DNA of 64,000 bases from a virus (taxonomy: Duplodnaviria; Caudoviricetes), in the IMG/VR virus record IMGVR_UViG_3300042561_002102. One strand, given 5' to 3'. Below are positions 1 to 54,068 of this stretch, in pieces. Both the position numbers and the translations under genes were made by a program. The first letter of the stretch is position 1, and each line of letters opens with the position of its first letter. Below the pieces are notes generated by a model. The model was not told the origin of the DNA. It saw only the letters and a list, made by a program, of their open reading frames with translations, and ran no database searches.

Positions 1-616
1 TTAAATATATCCATCAACAGACCAAAGGGCATCTATTCTCTCTAGTTCATCTTGGATTAGAATTTTGGTAAGCTCATCTTGTTTTTTTCTTAAAGGTGGT
101 GTGTTCCAGGGTCTACTTACATAATATAAGAAGTAGGAGTTTTTGTTTATTTGTTTTTTGATAACTTCAGGCGTGAAAAAGTGATGTGTAAGTATTAGTT
201 CAGCTTCTCCTGGTTTTTCTTTTTTTTTTTTTAAGTCTACTGGTAAATCCTCGAAGAGAGTATTCATTACGGGAATTATTGAACCAAAACATTCCATCTA
301 CCTTATCGGGTGCGCCTTCTAGAGATACGAGGTGATTATGATCACAACTAAAATACCAACCTACCTCTCTTGGAGATCCATCGAGTGTTCCCAGATTGTT
401 TCCTGAACAATCAAACCATCCACTCACCTTTCCAAACCCGATACCCAAGAAATCTTCAAGTCCTTCACCACCACAAAGAAAAAATCACTCGACATCAACA
501 AGTCCTTCACTATTCACCGACCAACTTCCATCAGTATAGTTATCTAAAAACTTTCTCTGCTCATCCGTTAAACCATCACGACTCTCAAATAACTTGTAAT
601 CTCTAAGATATCTCAT
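1..616 (-). pseudogene. Divergent LRR-array paralogue A0, disrupted
   Basis: Starts MRYLRDYKLFES at 616. Has an in-frame TGA at 485-487 where paralogues have GGA, and an A13 tract (230-242) that shifts the frame; A12 would restore it. Ends DALWSVDGYI-stop at 1-3. Confidence 0.8.
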
Positions 617-627
617 AACACTATATA

Positions 628-1299
628 TTAAAGATATCCACCAATAGACCACAAATCGTCTATCTTTACAAGTATATTCTCGGGTAATATCTTTTTTAGC
701 TCTTCTTGTTTCTTCTTGAACTCTTCCGTATTCCAAACAAGACTTACGTAATACGGGAAATCAGGATTTTTAGTTATTTGTTCTTTTATAACTTCAGGTG
801 TAAAGAAATGATGGGTAAGAAGTAGTGATATTTCTTCTGGTTTGATATGGTCTATCTCGTCCAGGAAGGATTGTAAGTTATAGCTGAACAAGGTATTCTT
901 GAAGTAGAATTCATACTTTATCACTTCAGGAGCTCCCTTTAGGGATATCAAGGGATTTCTTTCACACCAAAAACTCCCACGAACCACTCTAGGTGATCCT
1001 TCAAGAGTTCTCAGTTGGTTACCATGACACAAAAAACCTTCACCAACCTCTCTAGGTGATCCCTCAAGAGTTCTCAGTTGATTATCAAAACACCAAAAAT
1101 CACCACTCACCTTTCCAAACCTGATACCTAAGAAATCTTCAAGTCCTTGACTATAACAATAAAAACTTCCCCTAACATCAACAAGTCCTTCTCTATTCAC
1201 CGACCAACTTCCATAAGTATAGTTATCTAAAAACTTACTCTGCTCATCCGTTAAACCATCACGACTCTCAAATAACTTGTAATCTCTAAGATATCTCAT
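628..1299 (-). CDS. LRR-array paralogue A1 (223 aa)
   Basis: MRYLRDYKLFES start after TAATATATA; 21-aa VxGxFxCxxNQLRTLEGSP repeats; constant C-terminus DDLWSIGGYL. Confidence 0.92.
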   Translation of the reverse strand: MRYLRDYKLFESRDGLTDEQSKFLDNYTYGSWSVNREGLVDVRGSFYCYSQGLEDFLGIRFGKVSGDFWCFDNQLRTLEGSPREVGEGFLCHGNQLRTLEGSPRVVRGSFWCERNPLISLKGAPEVIKYEFYFKNTLFSYNLQSFLDEIDHIKPEEISLLLTHHFFTPEVIKEQITKNPDFPYYVSLVWNTEEFKKKQEELKKILPENILVKIDDLWSIGGYL

Positions 1300-1315
1300 A
1301 ACACTATATATTATA

Positions 1316-1987
1316 TTAAAGGTATCCACCAATAGACCATAAATCGTCTATCTTTACAAGTATATTCTCGGGTAAAATCTTTTTTAGCTCTTCTTGTGTT
1401 TTTTTGAACCCTTCAGTATTCCAGGCAAGACTTACGTAATACGGAAAATCAGGATTTTTAGTTATTTGTTTTTTTATGATCCCAGGTGTGAAGAAATGAT
1501 GTGTGAGAAGTAGTGATATTTCATCAGGTTCGATATGGTCTATTTTTTCAAGGAAGGATTGTAAGTTATATTCGAACCAGGTTTCCTTGAAACGGAATTG
1601 ACCCTTTATCACTTCAGGTGCTCCCTGTAGAGATATCAGGGGATTTCCATCACAAGAAAAATCTCCACCAACCTTCCTCGGTGCCCCTTCAAGAGTTTTT
1701 AGTTGATTACCATCACAATCAAAATTTCCAACAACCTCACGAGGTGATCCCTCAAGAGTTCTCAGTTGATTCCAATAACACCAAAAATAACCACTCACCC
1801 GTCCAAACCTAATACCCAAGAAATCTTCAAGTCCTTGATTTTCACACCAAAAACTTCCCTCGACATCAACAAGTCCTTCACTATTCACTGACCAACTTCC
1901 ATCAGTATATTTATCTAAAAACTTCCTCTGCTCATCCGTTAAACCATCACGACTTTCAAACAATCTATAATCTCTAAGATATCTCAT
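1316..1987 (-). CDS. LRR-array paralogue A2 (223 aa)
   Basis: Same architecture; start trimmed to the MRYLRD ATG. Confidence 0.92.
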   Translation of the reverse strand: MRYLRDYRLFESRDGLTDEQRKFLDKYTDGSWSVNSEGLVDVEGSFWCENQGLEDFLGIRFGRVSGYFWCYWNQLRTLEGSPREVVGNFDCDGNQLKTLEGAPRKVGGDFSCDGNPLISLQGAPEVIKGQFRFKETWFEYNLQSFLEKIDHIEPDEISLLLTHHFFTPGIIKKQITKNPDFPYYVSLAWNTEGFKKTQEELKKILPENILVKIDDLWSIGGYL

Positions 1988-1998
1988 AACACTATATA

Positions 1999-2670
1999 TT
2001 AAAGGTATCCACCAATAGACCATAAGTCGTCTATCTTCAGGAGTATATTCTCGGGTAATGTCTTTTTCAGTTCCTCTTGTGTTTTTTTGAAGCCTTCGGT
2101 ATTCCAAGCAAGACTTACGTAATACGGGAAATCAGGATTTTTAGTTATTTGTTTTTTTATGACTTCAGGTGTAAAGAAACGATGGGTAAGTAGTAGTGAT
2201 ATTTCTTCCGGTTTGATATGGTCTATCTTGTTTAGGAATGATTGTAAGTTATAGCTGGACTCGGTATTCTTGAAACAGAACGAATCTTTTATCACTTCAG
2301 GTGCACCCTCTAGAGATATCAGGGGATTTCCAGAACACCAAAAACCTCCACCAACCTTTCTAGGTGATCCTTCAAGAGTCCTTAGTTGGTTATCGCAACA
2401 CCAAAAATTTCCACCGACTACCCTAGGTGATCCTTCAAGAGTTCTCAGTTGGTTTCTACGACAAAAAAAATAACCAGTAACCTTTCCAAACCTGATACCC
2501 AAGAAGTCACCAAGTTCTTGATCTTCACACCAAAAACTTCCCCTAACATTAACAAGTCCTTCACTATTCACCGACCAAGTTCCAATAGTATTCTTATCTA
2601 AAAACTTCCTCTGCTCGTTAGTTAGACTATTCATGTTCTCAAATAACTTGTAATCTCTTAGATATCTCAT
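1999..2670 (-). CDS. LRR-array paralogue A3 (223 aa)
   Basis: Same architecture. Confidence 0.92.
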   Translation of the reverse strand: MRYLRDYKLFENMNSLTNEQRKFLDKNTIGTWSVNSEGLVNVRGSFWCEDQELGDFLGIRFGKVTGYFFCRRNQLRTLEGSPRVVGGNFWCCDNQLRTLEGSPRKVGGGFWCSGNPLISLEGAPEVIKDSFCFKNTESSYNLQSFLNKIDHIKPEEISLLLTHRFFTPEVIKKQITKNPDFPYYVSLAWNTEGFKKTQEELKKTLPENILLKIDDLWSIGGYL

Positions 2671-2680
2671 ACTCTATATA

Positions 2681-3352
2681 TTAAAGATATCCACCAATAG
2701 ACCACAAATCGTCTATCTTCACGAGTATATTCTCGGGTAAGATCTTTTTTAGTTCATCTTGTTTCTTCTTGAACGGTTCAGTATTCCAAGCGAGACTTAC
2801 GTAGTATGGAAAATCAGGATTTTTACTGATTTGTTTTTTTATAACCTCGGGTGTAAAGAAATGATGGGTAAGTAGGAGTGATATTACATCCGGTTCGGAG
2901 TCGTCTATATTTCCAAGGAATGATCGTAAGTTATAGCTGAACCAGGTATTCTTGAATTGGAACTCACAATTTATCACTTCAGGTGCTCCCTCTAGAGATA
3001 TCAGAGGATTTGCAGAACAACAAAAATCTTCACCAACCTTTCTGGGTGATCCTTCAAGAGTTCTCAGTTGGTTATCGAAACAACTAAAATCTATACCAAC
3101 CTCTCTAGGTGATCCTTCAAGCGTTCTCAGTTGGTTACCATTACAAAAAAAACCCAACCTCACCTTTCCAAACCTAATACCTAAGAAATCTTCAAGTTCT
3201 TGACCTTGACACCAAAAACTTCCGTCGACATCAACAAGTCCTTCACTATTCACCGACCACCTTCCATGAGTATTCTTATCTAAAAACTTCCTCTGCTCAT
3301 CCGTTAAACCATCACGACTCTCGAATAGCTTATAATCTCTAAGATATCTCAT
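2681..3352 (-). CDS. LRR-array paralogue A4 (223 aa)
   Basis: Same architecture. Confidence 0.92.
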   Translation of the reverse strand: MRYLRDYKLFESRDGLTDEQRKFLDKNTHGRWSVNSEGLVDVDGSFWCQGQELEDFLGIRFGKVRLGFFCNGNQLRTLEGSPREVGIDFSCFDNQLRTLEGSPRKVGEDFCCSANPLISLEGAPEVINCEFQFKNTWFSYNLRSFLGNIDDSEPDVISLLLTHHFFTPEVIKKQISKNPDFPYYVSLAWNTEPFKKKQDELKKILPENILVKIDDLWSIGGYL

Positions 3353-3362
3353 ACTCTATATA

Positions 3363-4034
3363 TTAAAGATATCCACCAATAGACCACAAATCGTCTATCT
3401 TCACGAGTATATTCTCGGGTAACATCTTTTTTAGTTCTTCTTGTTTCTTCTTGAACCCTTCAGTATTCCAGGCAAGACTTACGTAGTATGGAAAGTTTGG
3501 ATTTTGGTCGATTTGTTCTTCGATAACTTGAGGTGTAAAGAAACGATGCGTAAGTAGTAGTGATATCTGATCCGGGTTGATTTGGTCTATACTGAATAGG
3601 AATGATTGTAAGTTATAGCTGAACCGGGTATTCTTGAAACAGAAGTTACTTCCTATCACTTCAGGTGCTCCCTCTAGGGATATAAGTGGATTTCCATAAC
3701 AATAAAAATCTCCACGAACCACTCTAGGTGATCCTTCAAGAGTTCTCAGTTGGTTCCCAGAACAACTAAAATCTTTACCAACCTCGATGGGTGCCCCTTC
3801 AGGAGTTCTCAGTTGATTATCAAAACACCAAAAATATCCACTCACCTTTCCAAACCTGATACCTAAGAAATCTTCAAGTCCTTGATTATTACACCAAAAA
3901 TTTCCCCTAACATCAACAAGTCCTTCACTATTCACCGACCAAGTGCCACGAGTATTCTTATCTAAAAACTTTCTCTGCTCATCCGTCAAACCATCACTAC
4001 TCTCGAATAGCTTATAATCTCTAAGATATCTCAT
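3363..4034 (-). CDS. LRR-array paralogue A5 (223 aa)
   Basis: Same architecture; start trimmed. Confidence 0.92.
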   Translation of the reverse strand: MRYLRDYKLFESSDGLTDEQRKFLDKNTRGTWSVNSEGLVDVRGNFWCNNQGLEDFLGIRFGKVSGYFWCFDNQLRTPEGAPIEVGKDFSCSGNQLRTLEGSPRVVRGDFYCYGNPLISLEGAPEVIGSNFCFKNTRFSYNLQSFLFSIDQINPDQISLLLTHRFFTPQVIEEQIDQNPNFPYYVSLAWNTEGFKKKQEELKKMLPENILVKIDDLWSIGGYL

Positions 4035-4045
4035 AACACTATATA

Positions 4046-4717
4046 TTAAAGATATCCACCGATAGACCACAAGTCGTCTATCTTCAGGAGTATATTCTCG
4101 GGTAATGTCTTTTTTAGCTCTTCTTGTGTTTTTTTAAATCCTTCGGTATTCCAGGCAAGACTTACGTAATATGGGAAATCAGGATCTTGGTCGATTTGTT
4201 CTTTTATAACTTCAGGTGTGAAGAAATGATGTGTAAGAAGGAGTGATATTTCATCTGGTTTGATTTGGTCTATCCTGTTTAGGAATGATGGTAAGTTATA
4301 TTTGAATCGGGTATTCTTGAAAAGGAAGTTACCCTCTATCACTTCAGGTGCTCCTTCTAGAGATATCAGTGGATTTTTATAACACCTAAAATCTCCACCA
4401 ACCACTCTAGGTGCTCCTTCAAGAGTTCTCAGTTGGTTACTGAAACAACTAAAATGTTCACCAACCTCCCTAGGTGATCCTTCAAGAGTTCTCAGTTGGT
4501 TACCCCAACAATAAAAACCTCCACTCACCTTTCCAAACCTAATACCTAAGAAATCTTCAAGTCCTTGTTCATGGCCCCAAAAACTTCCCTTGACATCAAC
4601 AAGTCCTTCACTATTCACCCACCACTTTCCACAAGCAATCCTATCTAAAAACTTACTTTGCTCATCCGTTAAACCATCATTACTCTCGAATAGCTTATAA
4701 TCTCTTAGATATCTCAT
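4046..4717 (-). CDS. LRR-array paralogue A6 (223 aa)
   Basis: Same architecture. Confidence 0.92.
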   Translation of the reverse strand: MRYLRDYKLFESNDGLTDEQSKFLDRIACGKWWVNSEGLVDVKGSFWGHEQGLEDFLGIRFGKVSGGFYCWGNQLRTLEGSPREVGEHFSCFSNQLRTLEGAPRVVGGDFRCYKNPLISLEGAPEVIEGNFLFKNTRFKYNLPSFLNRIDQIKPDEISLLLTHHFFTPEVIKEQIDQDPDFPYYVSLAWNTEGFKKTQEELKKTLPENILLKIDDLWSIGGYL

Positions 4718-4727
4718 ACTCTATATA

Positions 4728-5399
4728 TTAAAGATATCCACCGATAGACCACAAGTCGTCTATCTTCAGGAGTATATTCTCGGGTAATATCTTTTTTAGT
4801 TCATCTTGTGTTTTTTTAAATCCTTCGGTATTCCAGGCAAGACTTATGTAATATGGGAAATCAGGATTTTTAGTTATTTGTTCCTTAATAACCTCGGGTG
4901 TAAAGAAATGATGAGTAAGAAGGAGTGTTATTACATCTGGTTTTACATGGGCTATCCTGTTTAGGAATGATTGTAAGTTATATCTGAAAACGGTTCTCTT
5001 GAACAAGAATTGACCCTCTATCACTTCAGGTGCTCCCTCTAGAGATATCAAGGGATTTCCATGACAATGAAAATCTCCATCAACCTTTCTAGGTGCCCCT
5101 TCAAGAGTTCTCAGTTGATTAGCCCAACAATAAAAACCTTCACCAACCTCCACGGGTGATCCTTCAAGAGTTCTCAGTTGGTTACTACGACAACTAAAAT
5201 CTCCACTCACCTTTCCAAACCTAATACCCGAGAAATCTTCAAGTCCTTGACTATGACAATAAAAATCTCCCTCGACATCAACAAGTCCTTCACTATTCAC
5301 CGACCAAGTTCCACGAGTATACTCATCTAAGAACTTCCTCTGCTCATCCGTCAAACCATCACGACTCTCGAATAACTTATAATCTCTAAGATATCTCAT
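4728..5399 (-). CDS. LRR-array paralogue A7 (223 aa)
   Basis: Same architecture; start trimmed. Confidence 0.92.
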   Translation of the reverse strand: MRYLRDYKLFESRDGLTDEQRKFLDEYTRGTWSVNSEGLVDVEGDFYCHSQGLEDFSGIRFGKVSGDFSCRSNQLRTLEGSPVEVGEGFYCWANQLRTLEGAPRKVDGDFHCHGNPLISLEGAPEVIEGQFLFKRTVFRYNLQSFLNRIAHVKPDVITLLLTHHFFTPEVIKEQITKNPDFPYYISLAWNTEGFKKTQDELKKILPENILLKIDDLWSIGGYL

Positions 5400-5410
5400 A
5401 ACACTATATA

Positions 5411-6082
5411 TTAAAGATATCCACCAATAGACCATAAGTCGTCTATCTTCAGGAGTATATTCTCAGGTAATATCTTTTTTAGTTCATCTTGTTTCTTCTT
5501 GAACGGTTCTGTATTCCAAACAAGACTTACGTAGTATGGAAAGTTCGGATTTTTAGTTATTTGTTCTTCGATAACTTTAGGTGTAAAGAAATGATGGGTA
5601 AGAAGTAGTGATATTTCATCTGGGTTGATTTGGTCTATTTTTCTAAGGAATGATTGTAAGTCATAGTCGAAAAAGGTATCGTTGAAACAAAAGTCATTCT
5701 TTATCACATCAGGAGCTCCCTCTAGGGATATCAGGGGATTTAGATAACAATAAAAACTTCCATCAACCTCTGTAGGTGATCCTTCAAGAGTTCTTAGTTG
5801 GTTACCATGACACAAAAAATCTCCACCAACCTCGCTGGGTGCCCCTTCAAGAATCCTTAGTTGGTTACTAGAACAATTAAAACTTCCTCTCACCTTTCCA
5901 AACCTGATACCCAAGAAATCTTCAAGTCCTTGATCTTCACAAAGAAAACTTTCCTTGACATCAACAAGTCCTTCATTATTCACCGACCAAGTTCCATAAG
6001 TATTCCTATCTAAAAACTTCCTCTGCTCATCCGTTAAACCATCACGACTCTCAAATAACCTATAACCCTGGATATACTTCAT
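5411..6082 (-). CDS. LRR-array paralogue A8 (223 aa)
   Basis: Same architecture; starts MKYIQGY. Confidence 0.92.
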   Translation of the reverse strand: MKYIQGYRLFESRDGLTDEQRKFLDRNTYGTWSVNNEGLVDVKESFLCEDQGLEDFLGIRFGKVRGSFNCSSNQLRILEGAPSEVGGDFLCHGNQLRTLEGSPTEVDGSFYCYLNPLISLEGAPDVIKNDFCFNDTFFDYDLQSFLRKIDQINPDEISLLLTHHFFTPKVIEEQITKNPNFPYYVSLVWNTEPFKKKQDELKKILPENILLKIDDLWSIGGYL

Positions 6083-6093
6083 AACACTATATA

Positions 6094-6765
6094 TTAAAGA
6101 TATCCACCAATAGACCACAAATCATCTATCTTCAGGAGTATATTCTCGGGTAAGATCTTTTTTAGATCCTCTTGTTTCTTCTTGAACGGTTCTGTATTCC
6201 AAACAAGACTTACGTAATATGGGAAATCAGTATTTTGAGTTATTTGTTCCCGAATAACCTCGGGTGTAAAGAAATGATGGGTAAGTAGGAGTGATATTAA
6301 TTCTGGTTTCATACGGTCTATCTCGTTTAGGAATGATTGTAAGTTATATCTGAAATAGGTTTTCTTGAAACTGAATTGACCCTCTATCACTTCAGGTGCT
6401 CCCTCTAGAGATATAAGTGGATTTTCATAACAATAAAAACTTCCACCAACCACTCTAGGTGATCCTTCAAGAGTTCTCAGTTGGTTACCCCAACACCCAA
6501 AATCTCCACCAACCTAGCTGGGTGCCCCATCAAGAGTTCTTAGTTGGTTACTACTACAATAAAAACTTCCGCTCACCTTTCCAAACCTGATACCTAAGAA
6601 ATCTTCAAGTCCTTGACCTTGACAATAAAAACCTCCCTTGATATCAACAAGTCCTTCACTATTCACCGACCAAATTCCACTAATACACTTAGCTAAAAAC
6701 TTCCTCTGCTCATCCGTTAAACCATCACGACTCTCGAATAGCTTATACTTTCTAATATACTTCAT
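6094..6765 (-). pseudogene. LRR-array paralogue A9 with internal nonsense codon
   Basis: Full-length 672-bp frame with an in-frame TAG at 6514-6516 where paralogues have GAG (APS-E-V). Confidence 0.85.
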
Positions 6766-6866
6766 ACTACTATATATTAAAGATATCCACCGATAAACTA
6801 CCCTTCATCTACTCCCTCTAGATCCTCTTGAGATAGGATTCTACGAAGCTCATTTTTTTGAAGGTG

Positions 6867-6988
6867 AGATACATTTAGGTTTTCTTTTTTAATATATACA
6901 CTAAAATAATAAACGAAGATGAAAGATAAAAGACACATAAAAAGTTTTAATGAAGCAACAGAAAACTTGAACATATCTGGTCTTAGTG
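6867..6988 (+). repeat. Degenerate leader-type attC-like element (left core lost)
   Basis: AGATACATTT..AACATATCTG arms; homologous to 10140-10273 and 12582-12716; contains TAATATATA and the ATG of the 6919 ORF. Confidence 0.6.
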
Positions 6989-7173
6989 ATAGTAGTTTTA
7001 ATTTTAATGATGAAAAGTTAAGAACTATGATGAAAGATTTAGTTGATTATACAAGAGGTAAGATCAGAGAGGTTCCAAAAGATACAGAGTCGAAAAAATT
7101 CGTTGATAATTTCATCAAAGAATATGAAGACTGGTATAAATTAAGTGATGAAGAACAGAGGTCTGCTATTTAA
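6919..7173 (+). CDS. Hypothetical protein with shared MKxxxHIKSFNE..ENLNIS leader
   Basis: ORF; first ~21 aa homologous to the ORFs at 10204 and 12647, remainder unrelated. Confidence 0.75.
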   Translation: MKDKRHIKSFNEATENLNISGLSDSSFNFNDEKLRTMMKDLVDYTRGKIREVPKDTESKKFVDNFIKEYEDWYKLSDEEQRSAI

Positions 7174-10139: not shown

Positions 10140-10273
10140 ACATAACGGCTACAGATATATTTAGGTTTTCTTTTTATATATATACTAAAAATAATAAACG
10201 AGTATGAAAGATTTAAAACACTTAAAGAGATTTAACGAGTCAGATGAAAACTCGAATATATCTGATGTTAGAA
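10140..10273 (+). repeat. Leader-type attC-like element
   Basis: ACATAAC-ggcta-cagatatatt ... aatatatctg-at-GTTAGAA; the loop holds TATATA, an ATG and the leader codons. Confidence 0.75.
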
Positions 10274-10446
10274 GTGATAAATCACACATTGATTTCTTGG
10301 ATGAATTTGTTGAAAAAATAAACCAGTTAAGAGATGATGTTAAAAAGAAGGGTTATGTTGATAATGAAAATGTGGATTTTATAGAGGAGCTTTACTCTGT
10401 TTATTCATTTTATTATGATACAGAGGAGAGGTTTGTTAAAAATTGA
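10204..10446 (+). CDS. Hypothetical protein with shared leader
   Basis: MKDLKHLKRFNESDENSNISDV, then unique sequence. Confidence 0.75.
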   Translation: MKDLKHLKRFNESDENSNISDVRSDKSHIDFLDEFVEKINQLRDDVKKKGYVDNENVDFIEELYSVYSFYYDTEERFVKN

Positions 10447-12581: not shown

Positions 12582-12716
12582 CACATAACGTCTCTTAGAT
12601 ATATTTAGGTTTTTTTTTTAATATATACTAAAAACAATTTACGAAGATGAAAGGTAATAAACACATAAAAAGTTTCAACGAGCATCAAGAAAACTTGAAT
12701 ATATCTGATGCTGGCG
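12582..12716 (+). repeat. Leader-type attC-like element with mutated right core
   Basis: CACATAAC..agatatattt ... aatatatctg-at-GCTGGCG. Confidence 0.65.
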
Positions 12717-13243: not shown

Positions 13244-13272
13244 GTAGTCTATTTCATAAATATATAATTAAT

Positions 13273-13974: not shown

Positions 13975-13999
13975 GGGGGTATCTTTAATATATAGTCAT

Positions 14000-14671: not shown

Positions 14672-14682
14672 TATATAGTAGT

Positions 14683-15354: not shown

Positions 15355-15366
15355 TATATACAGAGT

Positions 15367-16038: not shown

Positions 16039-16048
16039 TATATAGAGT

Positions 16049-16783: not shown

Positions 16784-16794
16784 TATATAGTATT

Positions 16795-17403: not shown

Positions 17404-17414
17404 TATATAGTGTT

Positions 17415-18086: not shown

Positions 18087-18098
18087 TATATACAGAGT

Positions 18099-18770: not shown

Positions 18771-18782
18771 TATATACAGAGT

Positions 18783-21757: not shown

Positions 21758-21814
21758 AAAGTTATATATTAAAAAAAGTAACTTTTTTACACATTCCAAA
21801 ATAACTTACTAAAA

Positions 21815-34728: not shown

Positions 34729-34883
34729 AAAAGGAGTCAAATCTAGTTAAAGGCCACTTAGTTTCAAGAAGTTTGGGACTACTTACAAAACTCACCTCTA
34801 CTGTTGATTGACTCCTTTGAATATATAGTAGAAAAAATATAAGTTGATATCAAAGATATAAAAATTTTGATATATAAATATGT

Positions 34884-42902: not shown

Positions 42903-44192
42903 TTAGTCATCGACTTCATACCAATCACCAGAAGTAGAAACAAGTTGTCTTTCAGATGAGTCGATAGCTATGTTAGTAAGACATTTCTCAGTGAGACTCA
43001 AATATTTCATACTATCAACATAAGGATATCTATCAAAATATACTTTTTTAAGATTACATATATAAGTATCTTCTGTTTTTCTGGTTTTACCGTCCGTCAT
43101 CATAAGATTAGAACTTGAATCTTGATGGGTTTTGTAAAACCAACCTTTAGATTGAGCAAATTGCTTGAAAAGTTCAATATCTGAATCGTTGTTTGTGTAA
43201 ATCCTATCTACAAAGATAGTTCCGTCATTAAGTGTCCAAACAATAGCTCTACCACGAATCTTATTGGATAGATATTTACCATCGGATATTCTTCCATTGT
43301 TATCATAAAGTATAACCATTTGGCAAACTTCTGGATTTTCGGTGTATATCTTGAAATACTCAGGCCCCTTTTCTTTCATACAAGAGTTTCCGAGCTGGCC
43401 TAGTTGAGATTCATAATTCTGACTTTTATACCAAAATGCTATTTGATCACCTTTGACAACATCAAATTTAGCGAAAGCTTGGTTGAAAATATCCCAGGCT
43501 GCTTTATACCGGTTGGTAAAAACTTCGATTTCTTGTTCAGTGTGATTGATATTAAGAACTTTGAGAACAGATTTAGCAAATTTTCCTACTTTAAAAGTAG
43601 CTCTTTGCTCAGTCCAAAGCCTGTCGTATCGATTATCAAAAGGAATAAGACTGTTAATGTTGATAACTTTCTGAACACCATTCGAAACAAACTCTTTACC
43701 TTGAACTTCACCAATATCAATCAAGGCATATTCTTTTTTACTTGGATTAATACATCGAGCCTTTATTTGGCATTTCATTCCAGATGAAATTGATGTTGAA
43801 ACATCACCATCGGTAGGTGTGTAGTTCAATCTTCTGAAAGTAGAAATGTTTTTGTATTCACCATTCTCGTCTTTATTAAAAGTTAGTAATCCAGACGTGT
43901 TGTTGATTATCCAGATCTCTTTTGTTTCAGATAAAATTCTTTCAGCTTTGTTTTGTGGAATATACTCAACATAATCTTTTCTATCTTTTGTAAGATCAAT
44001 GTAGTTAGCTGCGTATTCAGCGTCTTTTCCTGATTGAAAAGCTGATAGTATTTCTCTAGCTACTCTATCATCATCTTTGAGAGAGTTCAAGAGAGAAGTA
44101 AAATTTGGTGAAAAATTGAGAGTAGATTCCATGATAAGGTTTTCTAGGAGAATTTCTTCGTTTAAGAACTGGTTGAACTTTTTGTGTATCAT
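42903..44192 (-). CDS. SCM..RAIVW..DRIY family protein, paralogue of 19709-21757
   Basis: Shared motif order; TAATATATA upstream. Confidence 0.75.
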   Translation of the reverse strand: MIHKKFNQFLNEEILLENLIMESTLNFSPNFTSLLNSLKDDDRVAREILSAFQSGKDAEYAANYIDLTKDRKDYVEYIPQNKAERILSETKEIWIINNTSGLLTFNKDENGEYKNISTFRRLNYTPTDGDVSTSISSGMKCQIKARCINPSKKEYALIDIGEVQGKEFVSNGVQKVININSLIPFDNRYDRLWTEQRATFKVGKFAKSVLKVLNINHTEQEIEVFTNRYKAAWDIFNQAFAKFDVVKGDQIAFWYKSQNYESQLGQLGNSCMKEKGPEYFKIYTENPEVCQMVILYDNNGRISDGKYLSNKIRGRAIVWTLNDGTIFVDRIYTNNDSDIELFKQFAQSKGWFYKTHQDSSSNLMMTDGKTRKTEDTYICNLKKVYFDRYPYVDSMKYLSLTEKCLTNIAIDSSERQLVSTSGDWYEVDD

Positions 44193-44271
44193 ATTTGTAT
44201 ATATATTATTTGAGGAATGTTTTTTTATATATAAACTTTATCAAAAAAAAAATAATCAAAAGAGAAAGAGA

Positions 44272-45007: not shown

Positions 45008-45550
45008 TTACTGAGTTTCTATAGAAAAGTTTTCTTCCGAAGAATCTTTACTACCACCATCAAGCTCTAACTTGAGTTCTATTAGAAGATCTTCATCGAT
45101 ATCTTCTATCTTGATATTTTTAGATATTTCGCCTAAAAGATCGAAGCTGTCGATGTTGTATTTCTTAAACTTTACAAAACAATCTTTAATATCATCTGCC
45201 GAGAAATCTTTAGATCCATCAGCCGGAACAGCATCCTTCAAATCGAGTATAACAGTAAAATCATAAAGGTTTTCATCATCCGAGAATCTACACTTGATAC
45301 TATCTTGAACTTTCGAGTATTTTGATTTTTGTATAGAATCTAGCTGAATACCAAGTTCGTTGAACCTCATTTTACCACCACCTTTAAGATCTTTTTGTTC
45401 TTTTGCCGAAAAAGTATCTACTTCTTCACCAGATTCTTCAAAAAGAGATTTTATAGTTCTCTCTATAGTATCAAGCCTAGTAGAAATATACCCCTCTGGA
45501 GTATCGTAAAGCCTCTCAAGAATAAACTCGTCAAAATATCTAACCCTCAT
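45008..45550 (-). CDS. Hypothetical acidic protein
   Basis: MRVRYFDEFILE start after TAATATATA. Confidence 0.7.
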   Translation of the reverse strand: MRVRYFDEFILERLYDTPEGYISTRLDTIERTIKSLFEESGEEVDTFSAKEQKDLKGGGKMRFNELGIQLDSIQKSKYSKVQDSIKCRFSDDENLYDFTVILDLKDAVPADGSKDFSADDIKDCFVKFKKYNIDSFDLLGEISKNIKIEDIDEDLLIELKLELDGGSKDSSEENFSIETQ

Positions 45551-45581
45551 ATAAAATTTTATTTAAGGGTATATATTATTT

Positions 45582-46502
45582 TCAAGAGGCCATAAACTCA
45601 CTTCTGAACTTTAGAAGTGCTAAATCTTTTGCTTTACATTCTAGCTCAACATCGATATCGTAACCATAATCATCAAAGTTCTCAAAAAGATAGTCGGCGT
45701 GTGCTTCGAGTTTAGATGATTGATCTTCATGAATTTTTCTAGAAGATGAATGATGACATAGTTGCTTTTCTTGCCAGGTCTGACGAGCCAACTCGAAAGC
45801 TGACCTCTGATCGAGATCATCAGAAAAACAAGCGTGATGAAAAAAATCAAATACAATAGGCGTTCCTATCTTATCCCAAATCATGGACTTTAGCATTTGG
45901 GTTGAGAACTGATTTTTTGAGTCGTCGTTTTCTACTGTTAGTCGTTTTTTGGTAGTTGCTGATAACCTCTCAAAATTTTGACAAAATCTCTCGGCTGCTT
46001 CTTCTCTGCTGGGTTTGGTTACACCAACATGAACATTGATTGAATAGTAGGTCGATGCCTCGAGACCCATGAGATCCATTAGCTGTGAATGTTTATCGAG
46101 TTCGTCGATTGTTTTTTCTACTACATCTGGATTTTGACTAGCTAATACACAAAACGGTGGTGCGTGAAACGATAATCTCATACCGTGTAGCTTGGCAAAA
46201 TCACCAGCAGATTTTAGAAGAGCTTTTATCCTATCAAATCTAGGTAATGTCGTTACATCGTAATGTGTAAGCCAAGGGAACATCTCTGAGGACATTCTAT
46301 ATACAAAGATGTTGTTTTGTAAATTATACTCAAGGATTTTGATTAAATCTTCTAAATTTTTGGTAGCTAGTTCGCTAACACCTTCAAGACCTTTCGTGTC
46401 AAAAGTTTTTTTGACCATACCACGATTCACTGATACTTGATCTACTTTTTTGACACCTTCGTTGATACCAAGGCAGATACAGCAATATCCTATTTTTGAC
46501 AT
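45582..46502 (-). CDS. uvsE: UV-damage endonuclease (UvsE/UVDE)
   Basis: IGYCCI, YRMSSEMFP, RLSFH, LTVENDD, PIVFDFFHH and MLE-like VELECKAKD motifs. Confidence 0.92.
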   Translation of the reverse strand: MSKIGYCCICLGINEGVKKVDQVSVNRGMVKKTFDTKGLEGVSELATKNLEDLIKILEYNLQNNIFVYRMSSEMFPWLTHYDVTTLPRFDRIKALLKSAGDFAKLHGMRLSFHAPPFCVLASQNPDVVEKTIDELDKHSQLMDLMGLEASTYYSINVHVGVTKPSREEAAERFCQNFERLSATTKKRLTVENDDSKNQFSTQMLKSMIWDKIGTPIVFDFFHHACFSDDLDQRSAFELARQTWQEKQLCHHSSSRKIHEDQSSKLEAHADYLFENFDDYGYDIDVELECKAKDLALLKFRSEFMAS

Positions 46503-46535
46503 TCTTTATTTTTTTACAAAGATATGAAAAAATAT

Positions 46536-50756: not shown

Positions 50757-50951
50757 TTATGAAATTTTCGGAAGGTTATTATCTAGGCTTAAGGAGTTTT
50801 GTGAAGATTTCAGTTCTTCTATAATTTCGTTACCTATTTTGATATTCTCTTCTAACATCCAATAGGGCCAGTTATCCATTGATACTTCTTGAGTGCCGTA
50901 TTGTTTTTGTAGAAGTAGTTTATTTTTTAATATACCGGTCAAAGGCATCAC
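50757..50951 (-). CDS. Possible T4 gp51-like baseplate hub assembly protein
   Basis: LLLQKQYG..MDNWPYWMLE pattern immediately after the hub-like gene. Confidence 0.5.
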   Translation of the reverse strand: MMPLTGILKNKLLLQKQYGTQEVSMDNWPYWMLEENIKIGNEIIEELKSSQNSLSLDNNLPKIS

Positions 50952-51888
50952 GAATAACGAAAAGAGATGATGCTCCTCGAGGAAAGATACTCTCGCTGCG
51001 GACCTCCTGACCGCAGCTACAAGTTGATTTTACACATTTGATGCCAAACTTCATAAGATCCACCGTGTTATTAAGGAATTGAAAAGATATATCGTCCATT
51101 TTTTCTTCGTCCGAGAAATCTTTCTCAAGTTCTAACAATCTTTGGCTATCCAGACTATTCTGACCGTTGGCAAGAAAAGGCATAATTTTCAAGAATGAAG
51201 GATTAACTTTCTTACCTTCTGCGTTTCTCTGTTGAATCCACTCATACAAGCTTTTCTGAACACCAACCGTGGGCGGAGATAGATTGAAAACATAATCGTT
51301 GACGGTTTCGAAGCTAAAGCAACTTAGGTTTTGATTGTAAAAAGGCTTGATTTTATCACCTGGTGTATGAAACTCGAAGTTAGCTCTTTTAAGCTCTATA
51401 TTACATTCAGTGTTATCTACCGGACAAATAGCCTTTGTGGTCAGGTAGTTACCTTTTTGGAAAGTAAGTTCTCTTATTAAAAATATCACAAAAAATTTGT
51501 CAGGATCTTTAAGATCAAGATAGGTCTTTGTTTCACCAGTTGGATATTTCAATTTTAAGCAACTAGATAAGATATAGTTTATTTTTTCTAGTATATCATA
51601 GATATTGTTATCATCAACCATCGAGAAATATTGAATCTCAATTACTTTAGCAGCTCTTATTTGTATGTAGGAACCTTTTGGATAAAATACTCCACAAGGT
51701 AGTTCTCTAGTATCTATACTGAAGTATTGAAGTTCACCAACTCTAGCTGAATCCGGTGCCATACCAAAACTTTGATCTACCTCAGGTACGACCGCCTCTT
51801 TTTGTGAGGTGAATTGTTTTTCTCGTTCTACACTTTCAATATGTCTTCTTAAATATTCTTCTTCTGATAATTGTTCTTCTTGACTCAT
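50920..51888 (-). CDS. T4 gp26-like baseplate hub / tail assembly protein
   Basis: ELPCGVFYP, DKFFVIFLIRELT and CP..C/CxCG motifs. Confidence 0.6.
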   Translation of the reverse strand: MSQEEQLSEEEYLRRHIESVEREKQFTSQKEAVVPEVDQSFGMAPDSARVGELQYFSIDTRELPCGVFYPKGSYIQIRAAKVIEIQYFSMVDDNNIYDILEKINYILSSCLKLKYPTGETKTYLDLKDPDKFFVIFLIRELTFQKGNYLTTKAICPVDNTECNIELKRANFEFHTPGDKIKPFYNQNLSCFSFETVNDYVFNLSPPTVGVQKSLYEWIQQRNAEGKKVNPSFLKIMPFLANGQNSLDSQRLLELEKDFSDEEKMDDISFQFLNNTVDLMKFGIKCVKSTCSCGQEVRSESIFPRGASSLFVIRDAFDRYIKK

Positions 51889-51948
51889 GTTTGGGTTATT
51901 TTTATATAATTTCGCCTGGTTTATATTGTGGTCGTAAGAAAAAGTTGA

Positions 51949-53754
51949 TTACTTGAACGATAGATTAGTATCTTCGTCTAAGTAACTAAGTTTTGTTGAG
52001 ATTTCTCTAACTACTGATGTAAGAGCGGCTATTTGAGATGATAAACCACCGAGCATTTGGTTACCCAAATTTTGCTCTTGATCTTTATTTTCAGATAAAA
52101 TTGGAACCGGTGGCTGTTCGGTATTTATTGGTAATCCCACCGATGACACCGTAGTTGGTGATTCTGTTCTAGTGACGGGCTGATCGACTTCAAAATTTGT
52201 TTTGGATATTGGTGTGACCATCGATTCTGATATCAGTTGAGGTGTCTGTTTCACAAAATTAGTTTGTAAAGTTGCCATGGGTATTATGTCAGAACGATTT
52301 GTTCTAATTTCATTTTCGGAATTTGAATAGGTGTTCATCTTTGGTATATTATTCATTCCAATAAATCTATTGTTTTCTGGCCTCACCATTTCAGAGTTAT
52401 TCATCGAAGCTATCTGCATAGAGATAGGTGTTATGAATCTATTTTCTCCTGTTGATCTCGAAGAACCTCTATCGAGTGTATTTACCGGGAGATTATTTTC
52501 AGAAAATTGTGTTGACCTATTGTAAAAATTATTCGTGAAGTTATCTGAATTGAAAACCGAATCTAATCCTCGATTTATTAAATTATTTGAATAGAGATCA
52601 GAATAGTTCAATAAATTATTAATCGTTCTTGTCGATAAGAAGTTATCCGATCTGTTGGGATTTGATATTTTATTAAAAATAGGATTTGAGATGTTGGAAT
52701 TGTTATTTGGTGCTAGAGATGATGATATATTACCAGAATTTAAAAAATTGGATAAGTTGTTTGTAATAATACCTTTTTCAGTTGAGAAATTCTCCAGATT
52801 CATAAACGATGAAATCATCATAGGCAAGTAATTTGATTCAAATAAATTAGTTGCTGAGTTTCTAGATCTAGTATCATATATTTGTCTTGAATTATTCAAA
52901 ATAGAGCTGATGTTATTCAAATTTTGATCTGTAAAATTGTTTTTGCCAAAAGATAAATTTGTAATATCTCTATAGGATAAAAATCTGGAATTAGTTGAAA
53001 AATTATTATTATTTTGATCTAAGTTAGTAGAAGACGATATATCTTGAATATTGGTAAATAACTTTGTTAAATTATTTATCAGTGGTTGTGTAGATGTCTG
53101 AAAATCAATAATAGGTCTAGTTTCGGTTGAATCATTCGACTTTATTTGAAAATAAAAATTTTTATTATTCACAACATTATCACCCATGTTTGTAATAGTG
53201 TTTGTGATATTTTTAATCTCATTACCTACCTCTTGATTTGTATTTGTGAATGTCAAATTCTCTCGAGTAATAGGTCTGTTTTCATTTAATTTTATAATTT
53301 CTAATCCTGTTAAATCATTTGTGAGTCTTGATCCTGTTAAATCATTTGTGAGTCTTGTTCCTGTTAAATCATTTGTGAGTCTCGATCCTGTTAAATCATT
53401 TGTGATCCCAGGTCTTGTAAAATCATTTTCAATTTGTTTTCCTTGTTCCTTTTTTGAAAAATTACTTACAAATTCTTCTACCGGTGTTAAAAAAACATTC
53501 AGTAAAGGAGGTGTAACACCAATCATTCCTAGATTAGATAATCTATTTTCACTTTGTTGTTCTGTATTTCCTACTACTAAATTAGAAAAATCATTTATTT
53601 TTTGTGGAATTTCTAATTTTTTTCCAGTAATAGACTTTGTAACTCGATCTAGTGAAAAATCATTTATATTTTCGAAGGCGAATTGATCGGATACATTTCT
53701 TACATTCTGAAAATCACCAGAGAGTAACATTTCATATGTATTCAGTAGATTCAT
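51949..53754 (-). CDS. Asn/Ser/Thr-rich low-complexity protein
   Basis: Long ORF with TNDLTGSRL repeats. Confidence 0.65.
   Translation of the reverse strand: MNLLNTYEMLLSGDFQNVRNVSDQFAFENINDFSLDRVTKSITGKKLEIPQKINDFSNLVVGNTEQQSENRLSNLGMIGVTPPLLNVFLTPVEEFVSNFSKKEQGKQIENDFTRPGITNDLTGSRLTNDLTGTRLTNDLTGSRLTNDLTGLEIIKLNENRPITRENLTFTNTNQEVGNEIKNITNTITNMGDNVVNNKNFYFQIKSNDSTETRPIIDFQTSTQPLINNLTKLFTNIQDISSSTNLDQNNNNFSTNSRFLSYRDITNLSFGKNNFTDQNLNNISSILNNSRQIYDTRSRNSATNLFESNYLPMMISSFMNLENFSTEKGIITNNLSNFLNSGNISSSLAPNNNSNISNPIFNKISNPNRSDNFLSTRTINNLLNYSDLYSNNLINRGLDSVFNSDNFTNNFYNRSTQFSENNLPVNTLDRGSSRSTGENRFITPISMQIASMNNSEMVRPENNRFIGMNNIPKMNTYSNSENEIRTNRSDIIPMATLQTNFVKQTPQLISESMVTPISKTNFEVDQPVTRTESPTTVSSVGLPINTEQPPVPILSENKDQEQNLGNQMLGGLSSQIAALTSVVREISTKLSYLDEDTNLSFK
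53304..53404. repeat. 27-bp tandem repeat, ~3.7 copies
   Basis: Unit ATCCTGTTAAATCATTTGTGAGTCTTG. Confidence 0.9.
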
Positions 53755-53774
53755 ATTTTTATATATAAAAGGGT

Positions 53775-54068
53775 ATGAACTACAGATCAAAGATCAAAAA
53801 CTTCACTCAGTTCGTTAAAGAGGCAATATCTGGAACTTATGATATATCACCACTTGGACCGAATATGCCAAGACAAGAGTTGAAACTTCCAGCAGGAACT
53901 CTCAAAGATGAAATAGTTTGGCTAGATGGATATGATAAATTTTATACTAGAGATGATTTTGAAGAAATCTATAACGAGTATTTGAAAGCTGGTGGAAGTC
54001 CTCTTTTTGAATTCACAAAACAAAATTTGCAAATTATTCTTCAGTTTTTAGAAGAAAAAAATAGTTAA
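53775..54068 (+). CDS. Hypothetical protein
   Basis: KIKNFTQFVKE start after TATATA. Confidence 0.7.
   Translation: MNYRSKIKNFTQFVKEAISGTYDISPLGPNMPRQELKLPAGTLKDEIVWLDGYDKFYTRDDFEEIYNEYLKAGGSPLFEFTKQNLQIILQFLEEKNS

What the first reader, a model, noticed from the sequence alone, without database searches (positions are those of the whole stretch)
616..54068. TAATATATA regulon coincides with a T4 capsid-targeting-like N-terminus
Seen: TATATA lies ~5-20 nt before ATG in genes starting MRYLRDYKLFES (arrays), MKDLKHLKRFNE, MKLKKYNEY, MKLIKLFRTFVHE, MKYLKTYESFRILNE, MKKIKSFVEHIKE, MIHKKFNQFLNE, MRVRYFDEFILE and MNYRSKIKNFTQFVKE. Genes behind TAnnTTTG (uvsE, HNH, NTase, 29-31 kb ORFs) lack this pattern. 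Established: T4 internal proteins carry a ~10-aa basic-aromatic-Glu CTS removed by the prohead protease after Glu, and T4 late promoters are a short AT-rich -10-only motif. Inference: more than 25 genes in this window encode packaged proteins.
Basis: partly seen in the sequence, partly recalled or inferred. Interest (0 to 1): 0.75.

Follow-up and report, generated by a model that had tools for sequence, protein, structure and literature searches.

The report
Capsid-address tag on late phage genes
In this stretch of a huge lake phage of Bacteroidota, about 28 genes (16 of them tandem leucine-rich-repeat paralogues) sit directly behind the phage's late-type TAATATATA element and start with a 10-15-residue peptide that matches phage T4's capsid-targeting tag, so they probably encode cargo loaded into the phage head, although no experiment shows this yet.

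Summary
TAATATATA occurs 26 times in the window (2.3 expected), and 18 of these copies belong to two tandem arrays of LRR paralogues. With the arrays collapsed, 7 of 13 motif-bearing gene families carry the N-terminal tag, against 2 of 53 others, and both exceptions have near-motifs.

The closest complete relative is LR756502.1 (642 kb).
- The link between motif and tag repeats there genome-wide (odds ratio 8.5, p = 2e-16), across about 95 unrelated protein families.
- The same element precedes its portal, protease-scaffold, capsid, sheath, terminase and lysin genes.
- A gp55-like sigma candidate lies beside a T4-type head module.

Synonymous codons inside the tag vary as they do in the rest of the genome, so selection acts on the peptide. 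A tag matrix trained only on the relative ranks T4's IPIII, IPII and IPI 2nd to 4th among 255 T4 ORFs.

Packaging, cleavage after Glu and transcription start sites remain untested, and this phage's own head genes could not be reached.

This scan has already reported the same kind of tag on other genomes and in other windows of this genome. I found no paper describing it for huge phages. Verdict: a new variant of a known kind, the T4 capsid-targeting system, greatly expanded and coupled to near-leaderless late genes.

The parts
1..6779 (-). Minus-strand tandem array of ~223-aa LRR paralogues. Eight are intact: 628-1299, 1316-1987, 1999-2670, 2681-3352, 3363-4034, 4046-4717, 4728-5399 and 5411-6082. 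Two are broken: 1-606 and 6094-6765. Each starts M[RK]Y[LI][RQ]xY[KR]LFE, and each has TAATATATA ending 5-6 nt before its ATG.
   Evidence: Tag scores are 12-23 bits. In the AlphaFold2 model, residues 1-11 have pLDDT below 50 and the folded body starts at about residue 17.
13986..19391 (+). Plus-strand tandem array of eight intact LRR paralogues: 14000-14671, 14683-15354, 15367-16038, 16049-16783, 16795-17403, 17415-18086, 18099-18770 and 18783-19391. They have the same tag and the same motif spacing as the minus-strand array.
   Evidence: In the 16-sequence alignment M1, Y3, Y7, L9 and F10 are invariant and E11 is kept in at least 90%.
6867..7173 (+). First of three genes that share one ~140-nt module: TAATATATA, a 19-nt A-rich leader and the first ~22 codons (MKDKRHIKSFNE...NLNIS). 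The rest of each protein is unrelated to the others.
   Evidence: DNA alignment; tag score 9.9 bits.
10140..10446 (+). Second copy of the promoter-leader-tag module (MKDLKHLKRFNE), joined to a different protein body.
   Evidence: tag score 12.9 bits.
12582..13183 (+). Third copy of the promoter-leader-tag module (MKGNKHIKSFNE), joined to a different protein body of 178 aa.
   Evidence: tag score 12.3 bits.
13255..13725 (+). Tagged gene starting at 13273 (MKLKKYNEY), with AATATATA at -12.
   Evidence: tag score 15.8 bits.
19709..21771 (-). 682-aa tagged protein (MKLIKLFRTFVHE) behind TAATATATA at 21763-21771. It belongs to a family of tagged paralogues that includes 42903-44192.
   Evidence: No Pfam or PHROG match.
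26885..28280 (+). 459-aa tagged protein (MKYLKTYESFRILNE) behind CATATATA at -12.
   Evidence: 19.9 bits. The identical protein occurs in 44 blocks of public lake assemblies.
28440..28929 (+). 156-aa tagged protein (MKKIKSFVEHIKE) behind AATATATATA.
   Evidence: 6.8 bits.
31832..32252 (-). 133-aa protein (MKNFEIYRHHLEPF) with a weaker tag, behind the variant motif TAATATATT.
   Evidence: 9.1 bits.
42903..44208 (-). 429-aa tagged protein (MIHKKFNQFLNE) with the T4-type core F-x-x-F-L-x-E, behind TAATATATA at 44200-44208.
45008..45578 (-). 180-aa tagged protein (MRVRYFDEFILE; compare T4 MKTYQEFIAE), with TAATATATA 25 nt upstream.
   Evidence: Across 19 orthologues the aromatic-x-x-aromatic-[ILV]-x-E core is kept and the Glu is invariant. 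The model shows a short low-confidence helix followed by a hinge.
53755..54068 (+). 97-aa tagged protein (MNYRSKIKNFTQFVKE). The 20-nt gap to the divergent gene 51949-53754 holds a single TATATATA that is at promoter distance from both start codons.
10564..11789 (+). TnpB (IS605 OrfB) gene behind TAATATATA but without the tag. It shows that the DNA motif does not require the tag.
   Evidence: tag score 1.9 bits.
34860..35891 (+). Untagged gene with the motif (Laminin_G_3 / concanavalin-like domain, 335 aa).
50920..54622 (-). Untagged genes with the motif: 50920-51888 (its orthologue lies next to the tail sheath gene in the relative), 51949-53754, and 54065-54622 (SLT lytic transglycosylase domain).
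   Evidence: SLT from precomputed Pfam hits.
45582..46530 (-). Example of the second promoter class: UvdE behind TATCTTTG (TAnnTTTG, the Bacteroidota housekeeping type), with no tag. The HNH gene 24256-25764 and the 29-31.5 kb genes look the same.

Best explanation
The window belongs to a very large phage of Bacteroidota with T4-type virion genes.

**The DNA element.** (T)TAATATATA is the phage's late-type promoter, a -10-like element with no -35 partner. It is probably read by host RNA polymerase carrying a small gp55-like phage sigma. It appears in two layouts:
- 20-36 nt before the ATG, followed by an A-rich leader. This is the layout of the structural genes.
- 10-13 nt before the ATG. Transcripts would then start at or within a few bases of the AUG.

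**The peptide.** Genes of the second layout often begin with M-[KR]-x-[IL]-K-x-[YF]-x-x-[FY], frequently followed by [ILV]-x-E. I read this as a capsid-targeting propeptide of the T4 kind.
- Its two aromatic residues, three apart, correspond to T4 IPIII residues 4 and 7, which determine targeting.
- The [ILV]-x-E corresponds to residues 8 and 10, which determine processing.
- The same 7-residue core (aromatic-x-x-aromatic-[ILV]-x-E) is the repeat unit of the scaffold that is fused to the head protease in relatives.

**Proposed mechanism.** Tagged proteins would co-assemble with the scaffold core inside the prohead. The gp21-type protease would cut them free after Glu. They would stay in the head and enter the host with the DNA.

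In this window the cargo would be 16 intact LRR paralogues and 11 unrelated small or medium proteins of unknown function.

**Shown:** the motifs, their positions, their association, selection at the peptide level, and the match to T4's proven tags. **Inferred:** promoter function, leaderless starts, packaging, cleavage and delivery into the host.
For: **DNA element**
1. It is strongly enriched in the window.
2. It is sharply positioned. In LR756502.1 the 9-mer lies at the -10..-13 position before 101 genes and at -20..-36 before 54 genes, against 1-2 genes in equal-sized control windows further upstream. The consensus tTAATATATA is the same in both classes.
3. In the relative it precedes the portal, protease-scaffold, major capsid and sheath genes. 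The genes carrying the 8-mer at -20..-36 include sheath, portal, large terminase, endolysin, tail fibres, head maturation protease and major head protein.
4. A gp55-like candidate lies 5 kb from the portal gene.

**Tag and its link to the element**
5. In the relative the tag occurs in 31% of genes with the close motif, 12% with the far motif and 6% of the rest. Shuffled N-termini give 1-3%.
6. The link holds per family: 42/124 against 37/654, odds ratio 8.5, p = 2e-16. About 95 unrelated families are tagged.
7. In the window, at family level, 7/13 against 2/53 are tagged.
8. Positions that my search pattern did not fix are also conserved: K/R at residue 2, H/Y at 3, I/L/V at 4. The first aromatic residue sits at position 7 in 63 of 104 tags.
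9. Synonymous codon use inside the tag equals genome-wide use.
10. An [ILVM]-x-E site follows the tag in 51 of 96 families, against 20.6 expected.

**Match to T4**
11. T4 IPII and IPIII start MKTYQEFIAE. In T4, residues 4 and 7 govern targeting and residues 8 and 10 govern processing (PMC9026906).
12. The matrix trained on the relative scores IPIII and IPII at 15.5 bits and IPI at 11.6 bits, ranks 2-4 of 255 T4 ORFs.
13. The relative's protease-scaffold protein carries 11 repeats of Y-S-E-Y-[IL]-A-E, and its capsid protein N-terminus contains EYAEFHQINE.

**Structure, orthologues and this phage's own genes**
14. The tag lies outside the folded body in both models, and its Glu is invariant in 19 orthologues.
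15. Contigs that carry proteins identical to the window's also encode a T4 gp13-like neck protein and gp32, in the same gene order as the relative.
Against: - There is no direct evidence of packaging, cleavage or transcription starts.
By synteny they lie about 240 kb away.
- Only about half of the tags have an [ILVM]-x-E site.
- The scaffold repeats do not score with the full tag matrix. Only the 7-residue core is shared.
- By the matrix, roughly 200 of 919 genes in the relative are tagged. That would be far more head proteins than any studied phage has.
- The element is not exclusive to virion genes. UvsX-like, PhoH-like and homing-endonuclease genes also carry it, as does TnpB in the window.
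- The protease (Pfam) and gp55 matches are weak.
Confidence: 0.6

Rival explanations
1. The peptide is a real signal but has a different destination or purpose. It could be a recognition site for the phage's own chaperones (Hsp70, Hsp20 and, just beyond the window, GrpE and DnaJ). It could be a degradation tag for a phage or host Clp-type protease. Or it could be an amphipathic anchor for a membrane or an intracellular phage compartment.
For: - The tag is basic and hydrophobic-aromatic, the general type of peptide that Hsp70 binds (established knowledge of DnaK binding motifs).
- The phage encodes Hsp70 at 38632-40509, Hsp20, and GrpE and DnaJ just past the window.
- About a fifth of all genes in the relative are tagged. 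That is easier to reconcile with a general handling signal than with capsid cargo.
- Only half of the tags have a protease-type site.
Against: - This reading does not explain why T4's three proven capsid-targeted proteins rank 2-4 of 255 with the tag matrix.
- It does not explain why the core equals the scaffold repeat unit.
- It does not explain why the tag is tied to the promoter element that head and tail genes share.
Confidence: 0.15
2. The N-terminal pattern follows from gene expression mechanics. The mRNAs are leaderless or nearly so, so the first 10 codons, or the nascent peptide, are constrained for ribosome loading. Alternatively, TAATATATA at -13..-5 is itself a ribosome-binding element rather than a promoter. 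On either version the peptide has no targeting role.
For: - The close class places the motif exactly where a Shine-Dalgarno sequence would lie, at a tight distance.
- Bacteroidota lack Shine-Dalgarno-led initiation and use A/U-rich leaders (established knowledge).
- The phage encodes its own IF3 at 62488-63018.
- The tag is concentrated in the close-motif class.
Against: - Synonymous codons in the tag follow genome-wide usage. Leu and Ser each use both of their codon families, so the RNA sequence is not what is conserved.
- 82 of 124 close-motif families have no tag, and 49 tagged families lack the close motif.
- The same asymmetric consensus lies 20-36 nt upstream of structural genes, outside any ribosome footprint.
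- Two aromatic residues three apart and a following Glu are not a known requirement for initiation.
Confidence: 0.12
3. The promoter and the first codons spread together as a mobile recombination cassette. The shared N-terminus would then be a passenger of that history with no function of its own.
For: - Three window genes (6919, 10204, 12647) share a ~140-nt promoter-leader-first-22-codons module joined to unrelated protein bodies.
- The arrays copy the promoter and the tag together.
Against: - Across about 95 families the tag is conserved as amino acids while synonymous sites are randomised. That indicates long-term purifying selection on the peptide, not recent copying.
- Orthologues at 42-92% identity keep the core and the Glu.
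- Cassette spread and function do not exclude each other. T-even internal-protein genes likewise share only the targeting sequence (PMC3012670).
Confidence: 0.08

Closest known systems
Capsid targeting sequence (CTS) of phage T4 internal proteins IPI, IPII and IPIII (also Alt), removed by prohead protease gp21 (Mullaney and Black 1996; reviewed in PMC9026906, PMC3012670, PMC5694885)
   Same: - It is an N-terminal peptide of 10-20 residues found on otherwise unrelated proteins.
- It has a basic residue followed by two aromatic residues three apart, and in the T4-type subset I/L-x-E (window MRVRYFDEFILE and MIHKKFNQFLNE against T4 MKTYQEFIAE).
- T4's three internal proteins score 11.6-15.5 bits on the huge-phage tag matrix.
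- Relatives have the portal, gp21-like protease and gp23-like capsid genes in T4 order.
- The cargo genes are variable and share only the tag.
   Different: - Scale: about 28 tagged genes in 64 kb here and about 100-200 in the 642-kb relative, against a handful in T4.
- The dominant tag form (MK[HY][LI]KxYKxFES) is longer at the basic end than the T4 tag.
- Only about half of the tags have an [ILVM]-x-E site.
- Protease and scaffold are one fused protein in relatives, and the scaffold is built from 14-residue repeats of the core.
- The cargo includes a 16-copy LRR array.
- The genes sit 10-13 nt behind the promoter element.
- Packaging is unproven here.
T4 late promoters (TATAAATA, -10 only, read through gp55/gp33/gp45)
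   Same: - It is a short AT-rich element with no conserved -35 partner.
- It precedes head, tail, terminase and lysis genes in the relative.
- A small gp55-like protein is encoded near the head genes.
   Different: - The sequence is (T)TAATATATA, with a palindromic core that can serve divergent gene pairs (53755-53774).
- In two thirds of cases it lies so close to the ATG that the mRNA would be leaderless.
- No transcript mapping exists.
- gp33 and clamp dependence were not examined.
Propeptide-bearing ejection and inner-body proteins of giant phages phiKZ, 201phi2-1 and SPN3US (PMC5694885, PMC10052503)
   Same: Many head-internal proteins are processed by a gp21-related protease after Glu, and paralogue families share conserved N-termini.
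   Different: In those phages the propeptides are mostly longer than 100 residues, the cleavage motif is A/S/G-x-E, and about 8-19 proteins are processed. No short portable tag has been described on a fifth of the proteome.

Membership tests
T4-type capsid targeting sequence (CTS) system | A short (10-20 residue) peptide at the extreme N-terminus, shared by otherwise unrelated proteins | tested here: met
   The first aromatic residue is at position 7 in 63 of 104 tags. About 95 unrelated families in the relative and 9 in the window carry it.
T4-type capsid targeting sequence (CTS) system | Targeting determinants equivalent to IPIII residues 4 and 7 (two aromatic residues three apart) | tested here: met
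   In the tag logo the first position is Y/F/W and the position three residues later is F/Y. T4's sequence was read from NC_000866. The roles of the residues are taken from PMC9026906. T4 IPI, IPII and IPIII rank 2-4 of 255 ORFs with the huge-phage matrix.
T4-type capsid targeting sequence (CTS) system | A processing site [I/L]-x-E at the end of the tag | tested here: inconclusive
   It is present in 51 of 96 tag families against 20.6 expected, and in 6 of 8 window families. It is absent from about half, including many MKHLKTFESF-type tags.
T4-type capsid targeting sequence (CTS) system | A gp21-family prohead protease and a scaffold core encoded by the same phage | tested here: inconclusive
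   Met in relative LR756502.1: PF03420 at E = 1.8e-5, below the cut-off; phrog_207 at 6e-28; 11 scaffold repeats. More than 4,000 homologues were found. Only a gp13-like neck protein and gp32 were found on contigs that carry proteins identical to the window's.
T4-type capsid targeting sequence (CTS) system | Tagged proteins are present in virions with the tag removed | not testable with these tools
   This needs virion proteomics with N-terminal mapping.
T4-type late promoter | An AT-rich -10-type element without a -35 partner, upstream of virion genes | tested here: met
   The consensus is tTAATATATA, with no conserved positions further upstream. It precedes the portal, protease, capsid and sheath genes and the wider late gene set in the relative.
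T4-type late promoter | The sequence TATAAATA | tested here: not met
   The motif here is TAATATATA. It is a functional analogue, not the same sequence.
T4-type late promoter | A gp55-family late sigma | tested here: inconclusive
   A 121-aa ORF at LR756502.1 217128-217493 matches phrog_234 at E about 1e-5, and that is its only PHROG hit. Searching with T4 gp55 itself found nothing. The phage's own genome was not searched.
T4-type late promoter | Transcripts start a few bases downstream of the element, late in infection | not testable with these tools
   No RNA run was listed for this sequence.

The most novel reading that the evidence does not exclude
Huge Bacteroidota phages address about a fifth of their proteome to the capsid. 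They do so with a portable T4-type tag that copies one unit of their own repeat-built scaffold, and they express this cargo from leaderless late transcripts. On this reading the two 8-copy LRR arrays in the window are a diversifying set of injected binding proteins, an arsenal delivered with the DNA against host defences. The cargo of any such phage could then be read from its sequence alone.
Probability: 0.35. Interest if true: 0.8.

Novelty: new variant of a known kind. Interest (0 to 1): 0.62.

Why it matters
If the tag does what T4's does, the set of proteins that uncultivated huge phages inject into their hosts can be listed from sequence alone. This group of phages has no cultured member and no proteomics, so that would matter.

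It would also show three further things:
- The T4 targeting principle is ancient and scalable, from 3-5 proteins to perhaps 100-200.
- The tag is a single unit of the scaffold's own repeat.
- New cargo is recruited by joining a roughly 45-nt promoter-plus-tag cassette to any gene.

The tagged proteins are almost all of unknown function and include a hypervariable LRR array. That makes them a focused list of candidate host-takeover and anti-defence proteins. The tag itself could serve to load foreign proteins into large capsids.

Tried and rejected
- **Whole genome:** none is held for this window. Records behind the metagenome loci cannot be searched.
- **Similar DNA:** megablast of 40-64 kb against the phage collection found nothing.
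- **IMG/VR:** searches with two tagged proteins found no relatives, although the pattern MKYLKTYE alone matched 66 stretches.
- **RNA evidence:** no RNA holder was listed, so transcript starts could not be examined.
- **Complex prediction:** the tag's first 40 residues were tested against two copies of the scaffold repeat region. The job gave no verdict (score 0.00). This counts neither for nor against binding.
- **Fold search:** Foldseek of the LRR paralogue model against the PDB gave nothing below E = 0.5; only weak LRR rows appeared.
- **Domain searches:** Pfam and PHROGs on the window's tagged proteins and on 20 canonical tagged proteins of the relative returned almost nothing.
- **gp55:** searching the relative with T4 gp55 found nothing, and phrog_12791 found nothing.
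- **Terminase:** PF17289 found nothing, though PHROG terminase families did match.
- **Walking to the head module:** I walked from the window's end towards this phage's own head genes. I stopped when synteny placed that module about 240 kb away.
- **Scaffold as a polymer of the whole tag:** rejected. The repeats do not score with the full matrix. Only the 7-residue core is shared.
- **Bare TATATA at -20..-36 as a late-gene marker:** rejected. About 40% of those hits are background, and the set then includes ribonucleotide reductase, topoisomerase and DnaB genes. These drop out when the 8-mer is required.

Full report
**What the window is.** The sequence is AT-rich (27-40% GC) and densely coded. 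Recognisable genes include Hsp70, Hsp20, a NusG-like protein, UvdE, a 5'-3' exonuclease, a Dam methylase, an HNH endonuclease, TnpB, large glycosyltransferases and a protein with a type IX secretion sorting domain. A protein identical to one encoded here occurs in 44 blocks of public assemblies, on contigs of up to 0.2-1 Mb; the samples listed were read as lake metagenomes. By protein similarity the nearest records are the huge uncultured phages LR756502.1 (642 kb) and LR745206.1, at 44-56% identity. More distant are the 735-kb phages, the Lak phages and Sphingomonas phage PAU. Contigs carrying proteins identical to the window's continue past its end into IF3, GrpE, DnaJ, a T4 gp13-like neck protein, the small subunit of ribonucleotide reductase and gp32. 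These lie in the same order as LR756502.1 469-484 kb, at 69-81% identity for the conserved ones. No whole genome is held for the window. I therefore fetched LR756502.1 in full and used it as an independent test genome.

**The DNA motif in the window.** TAATATATA occurs 26 times against 2.3 expected. Eighteen copies belong to two inverted tandem arrays of ~223-aa leucine-rich-repeat paralogues, where the TAA of the motif is the stop codon of the preceding copy. The arrays hold 16 intact and 2 broken copies.

**The DNA motif in the relative.**
- The TATATA start position upstream of 919 ORFs has a sharp peak at -10 to -13 and a broad one at -20 to -36.
- The full 9-mer precedes 101 genes in the first position and 54 in the second, against 1-2 in control windows of equal size further upstream.
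- Both classes share the asymmetric consensus tTAATATATA, and nothing is conserved further upstream.
- The portal (PF07230, 1e-58), a protease-scaffold fusion, the major capsid protein (PF07068, 4.5e-28) and the tail sheath all carry the element 25-35 nt upstream.
- When the 8-mer [AT]ATATATA is required, the annotated genes of the far class are sheath, portal, large terminase, endolysins, tail fibres, a tail protein, head maturation protease and major head protein. A few recombination genes, a PhoH-like gene and homing-endonuclease genes are also present.
- With bare TATATA about 40% of the far class is background, and ribonucleotide reductase, topoisomerase and DnaB appear.
- A 121-aa ORF 5 kb from the portal gene matches only the T4 gp55 family, and weakly.

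I read the element as a late-type promoter. In the close class its end lies 4-7 nt from the ATG. By analogy with -10 elements, that would put the transcript start at or next to the AUG. This is inference, because no RNA data could be found.

**The peptide.** I defined the tag first by a regular expression taken from the window's examples, and then by a position matrix trained only on the relative.
- The logo is M-[KR]-[HY]-[ILV]-K-x-[YF]-x-x-[FY], followed by an excess of Glu. The positions that the expression left free are also conserved.
- The core motif is about eight times more frequent at N-termini than inside proteins.
- In the relative it marks 31% of close-motif genes, 12% of far-motif genes and 6% of the rest, against 1-3% for shuffled N-termini.
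- After clustering the protein bodies almost every tagged gene is its own family (about 95 families), and the association stays (odds ratio 8.5, p = 2e-16).
- In the window, using the externally trained matrix at a 1% false-positive threshold, 7 of 13 motif-bearing families are tagged against 2 of 53 (p = 6.6e-5). The two exceptions have the near-motifs CATATATA and TAATATATT.
- With the stricter expression the window alone is not significant once the arrays are collapsed. The window's raw impression therefore leans on paralogy, and the whole-genome test is what carries the claim.

**Peptide or nucleic acid?** Inside the tag, synonymous codon use equals genome-wide use. Lys at position 5 is AAA 0.60 / AAG 0.40 in both, and Leu and Ser each use both of their codon families. 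Many close-motif genes have no tag, and many tagged genes lack the close motif. Selection therefore acts on the amino acids, not on a leader or a downstream RNA element.

**Comparison with T4.** T4 IPII and IPIII both start MKTYQEFIAE. The review PMC9026906 states that targeting depends mainly on residues 4 and 7 and processing on residues 8 and 10. These are the two aromatic residues three apart and the I-x-E. Window proteins MRVRYFDEFILE, MIHKKFNQFLNE and MNYRSKIKNFTQFVKE have the same K/R-x-aromatic-x-x-F-[ILV]-x-E. Applied to all 255 T4 ORFs, the huge-phage matrix puts gp61.1 (MKTFKEFIKE, uncharacterised) first, then IPIII, IPII and IPI. All three experimentally established carriers are in the top four.

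**The T4-type core in the relative.**
- The 7-residue core (aromatic-x-x-aromatic-[ILVM]-x-E) starts within the first 13 residues of 29 genes in the relative (3.6 expected) and 5 in the window (0.4 expected).
- It occurs 11 times at a 14-residue period in the scaffold part of the protease-scaffold protein, as YSEY[IL]AE.
- The capsid protein's N-terminal region contains EYAEFHQINE.
- The full tag matrix does not score the scaffold repeats, so only this core is shared, not the basic N-terminal half.
- An [ILVM]-x-E site follows the first aromatic residue within 10 residues in 51 of 96 tag families (20.6 expected) and is missing from the rest.

**Structure and orthologues.** In an AlphaFold2 model of an array paralogue (mean pLDDT 81), residues 1-11, exactly the tag, have pLDDT below 50 and no secondary structure. 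The confident body begins at residue 17, yet M1, Y3, Y7, L9 and F10 are invariant among the 16 paralogues. In the 180-aa protein the tag forms a short low-confidence helix followed by a low-confidence hinge. Its 19 orthologues at 42-92% identity all keep the core, with an invariant Glu. A peptide that is conserved but not part of the fold is what a linear signal looks like.

**Modules.** Genes 6919, 10204 and 12647 share about 140 nt comprising the promoter element, an A-rich leader and the first ~22 codons, and then diverge completely. This parallels the T-even internal-protein genes, which share only the targeting sequence (PMC3012670; PMC9026906).

**What remains open.**
- Nothing shows packaging, cleavage or timing.
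- The fraction of tagged genes (about 200 of 919 by the matrix) is far above any known head proteome. This leaves room for a broader role, such as chaperone recognition.
- This phage's own head module was not seen.
- The protease (Pfam) and gp55 matches are weak.
- The tagged proteins are nearly all without known domains. A summary scan of the 98 genes of the relative that match the regular expression lists NUDIX, SET, GNAT, 2H-phosphoesterase/Acb1-like, SLT and methyltransferase domains. Some of those hits belong to false positives of the expression, such as SmpB and DnaB.

**Prior knowledge.** This scan has reported T4-like targeting tags on many other phage genomes and in other windows of this genome, and has noted the repeat-built scaffold elsewhere. 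I used those notes as leads and tested the scaffold claim myself. In the paper library, no paper combining 'capsid targeting' with megaphage or huge-phage terms was found. The only jumbo-phage papers that mention the CTS concern SPN3US-type phages, which have long propeptides.

Noticed in passing
window 62488-63018 (+): A phage-encoded translation initiation factor IF3 (IF3_N + IF3_C, from precomputed Pfam hits). IF3 is known to discriminate against leaderless mRNAs in E. coli. A phage copy beside a genome full of predicted near-leaderless late genes may be connected to that.
   Followed up: no
window 38265-40509 and L040 11235-15679: The phage carries a full chaperone set: Hsp20, Hsp70 (DnaK-like), GrpE and DnaJ. 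The last two lie just beyond the window's end, on contigs that carry proteins identical to the window's.
   Followed up: partly
window 53755-53774: The 20-nt gap between divergent genes 51949-53754 (-) and 53775-54068 (+) holds a single TATATATA at promoter distance from both ATGs. In LR756502.1 the 26-nt gap between 24005-25108 (-) and 25135-25572 (+) is a perfect palindrome around the same element. Both look like bidirectional promoters.
   Followed up: partly
T4 NC_000866 18966-19130 (gp61.1): This uncharacterised 54-aa T4 ORF starts MKTFKEFIKE and scores higher on the tag matrix than IPII and IPIII. It may be an unrecognised capsid-targeted T4 protein.
   Followed up: no
LR756502.1 225272-227371; P0076: The head protease and the scaffold are one 696-699-aa protein, with 11-12 tandem 14-residue repeats (KNIxYSEY[IL]AENLD), each carrying an [IL]-A-E site. 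More than 4,000 homologues exist in public metagenomes.
   Followed up: partly
window 10578-11789 (+): A TnpB (IS605 OrfB, Cas12f-like TNB domain) gene lies among the small cassette-like genes, directly behind TAATATATA and without a tag.
   Followed up: no
window 13735-13800 (+): A copy of the promoter module (TAATATATA at 13772) has no obvious ORF behind it. It lies just upstream of the plus-strand LRR array.
   Followed up: no
window 32321-33895 (+) and 30454-31538 (-): These are secreted or lipoprotein-like genes of Bacteroidota type: a signal peptide, a beta-helix and a type IX secretion C-terminal sorting domain just below the Pfam cut-off. They sit behind host-type TAnnTTTG promoters.
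   Followed up: no
L042 4860-5471 (-): A further LRR-array-type paralogue with the tag (MRYIRNYKLFENSSSLTQDQ) lies about 14 kb beyond the window's end, away from the two arrays.
   Followed up: no
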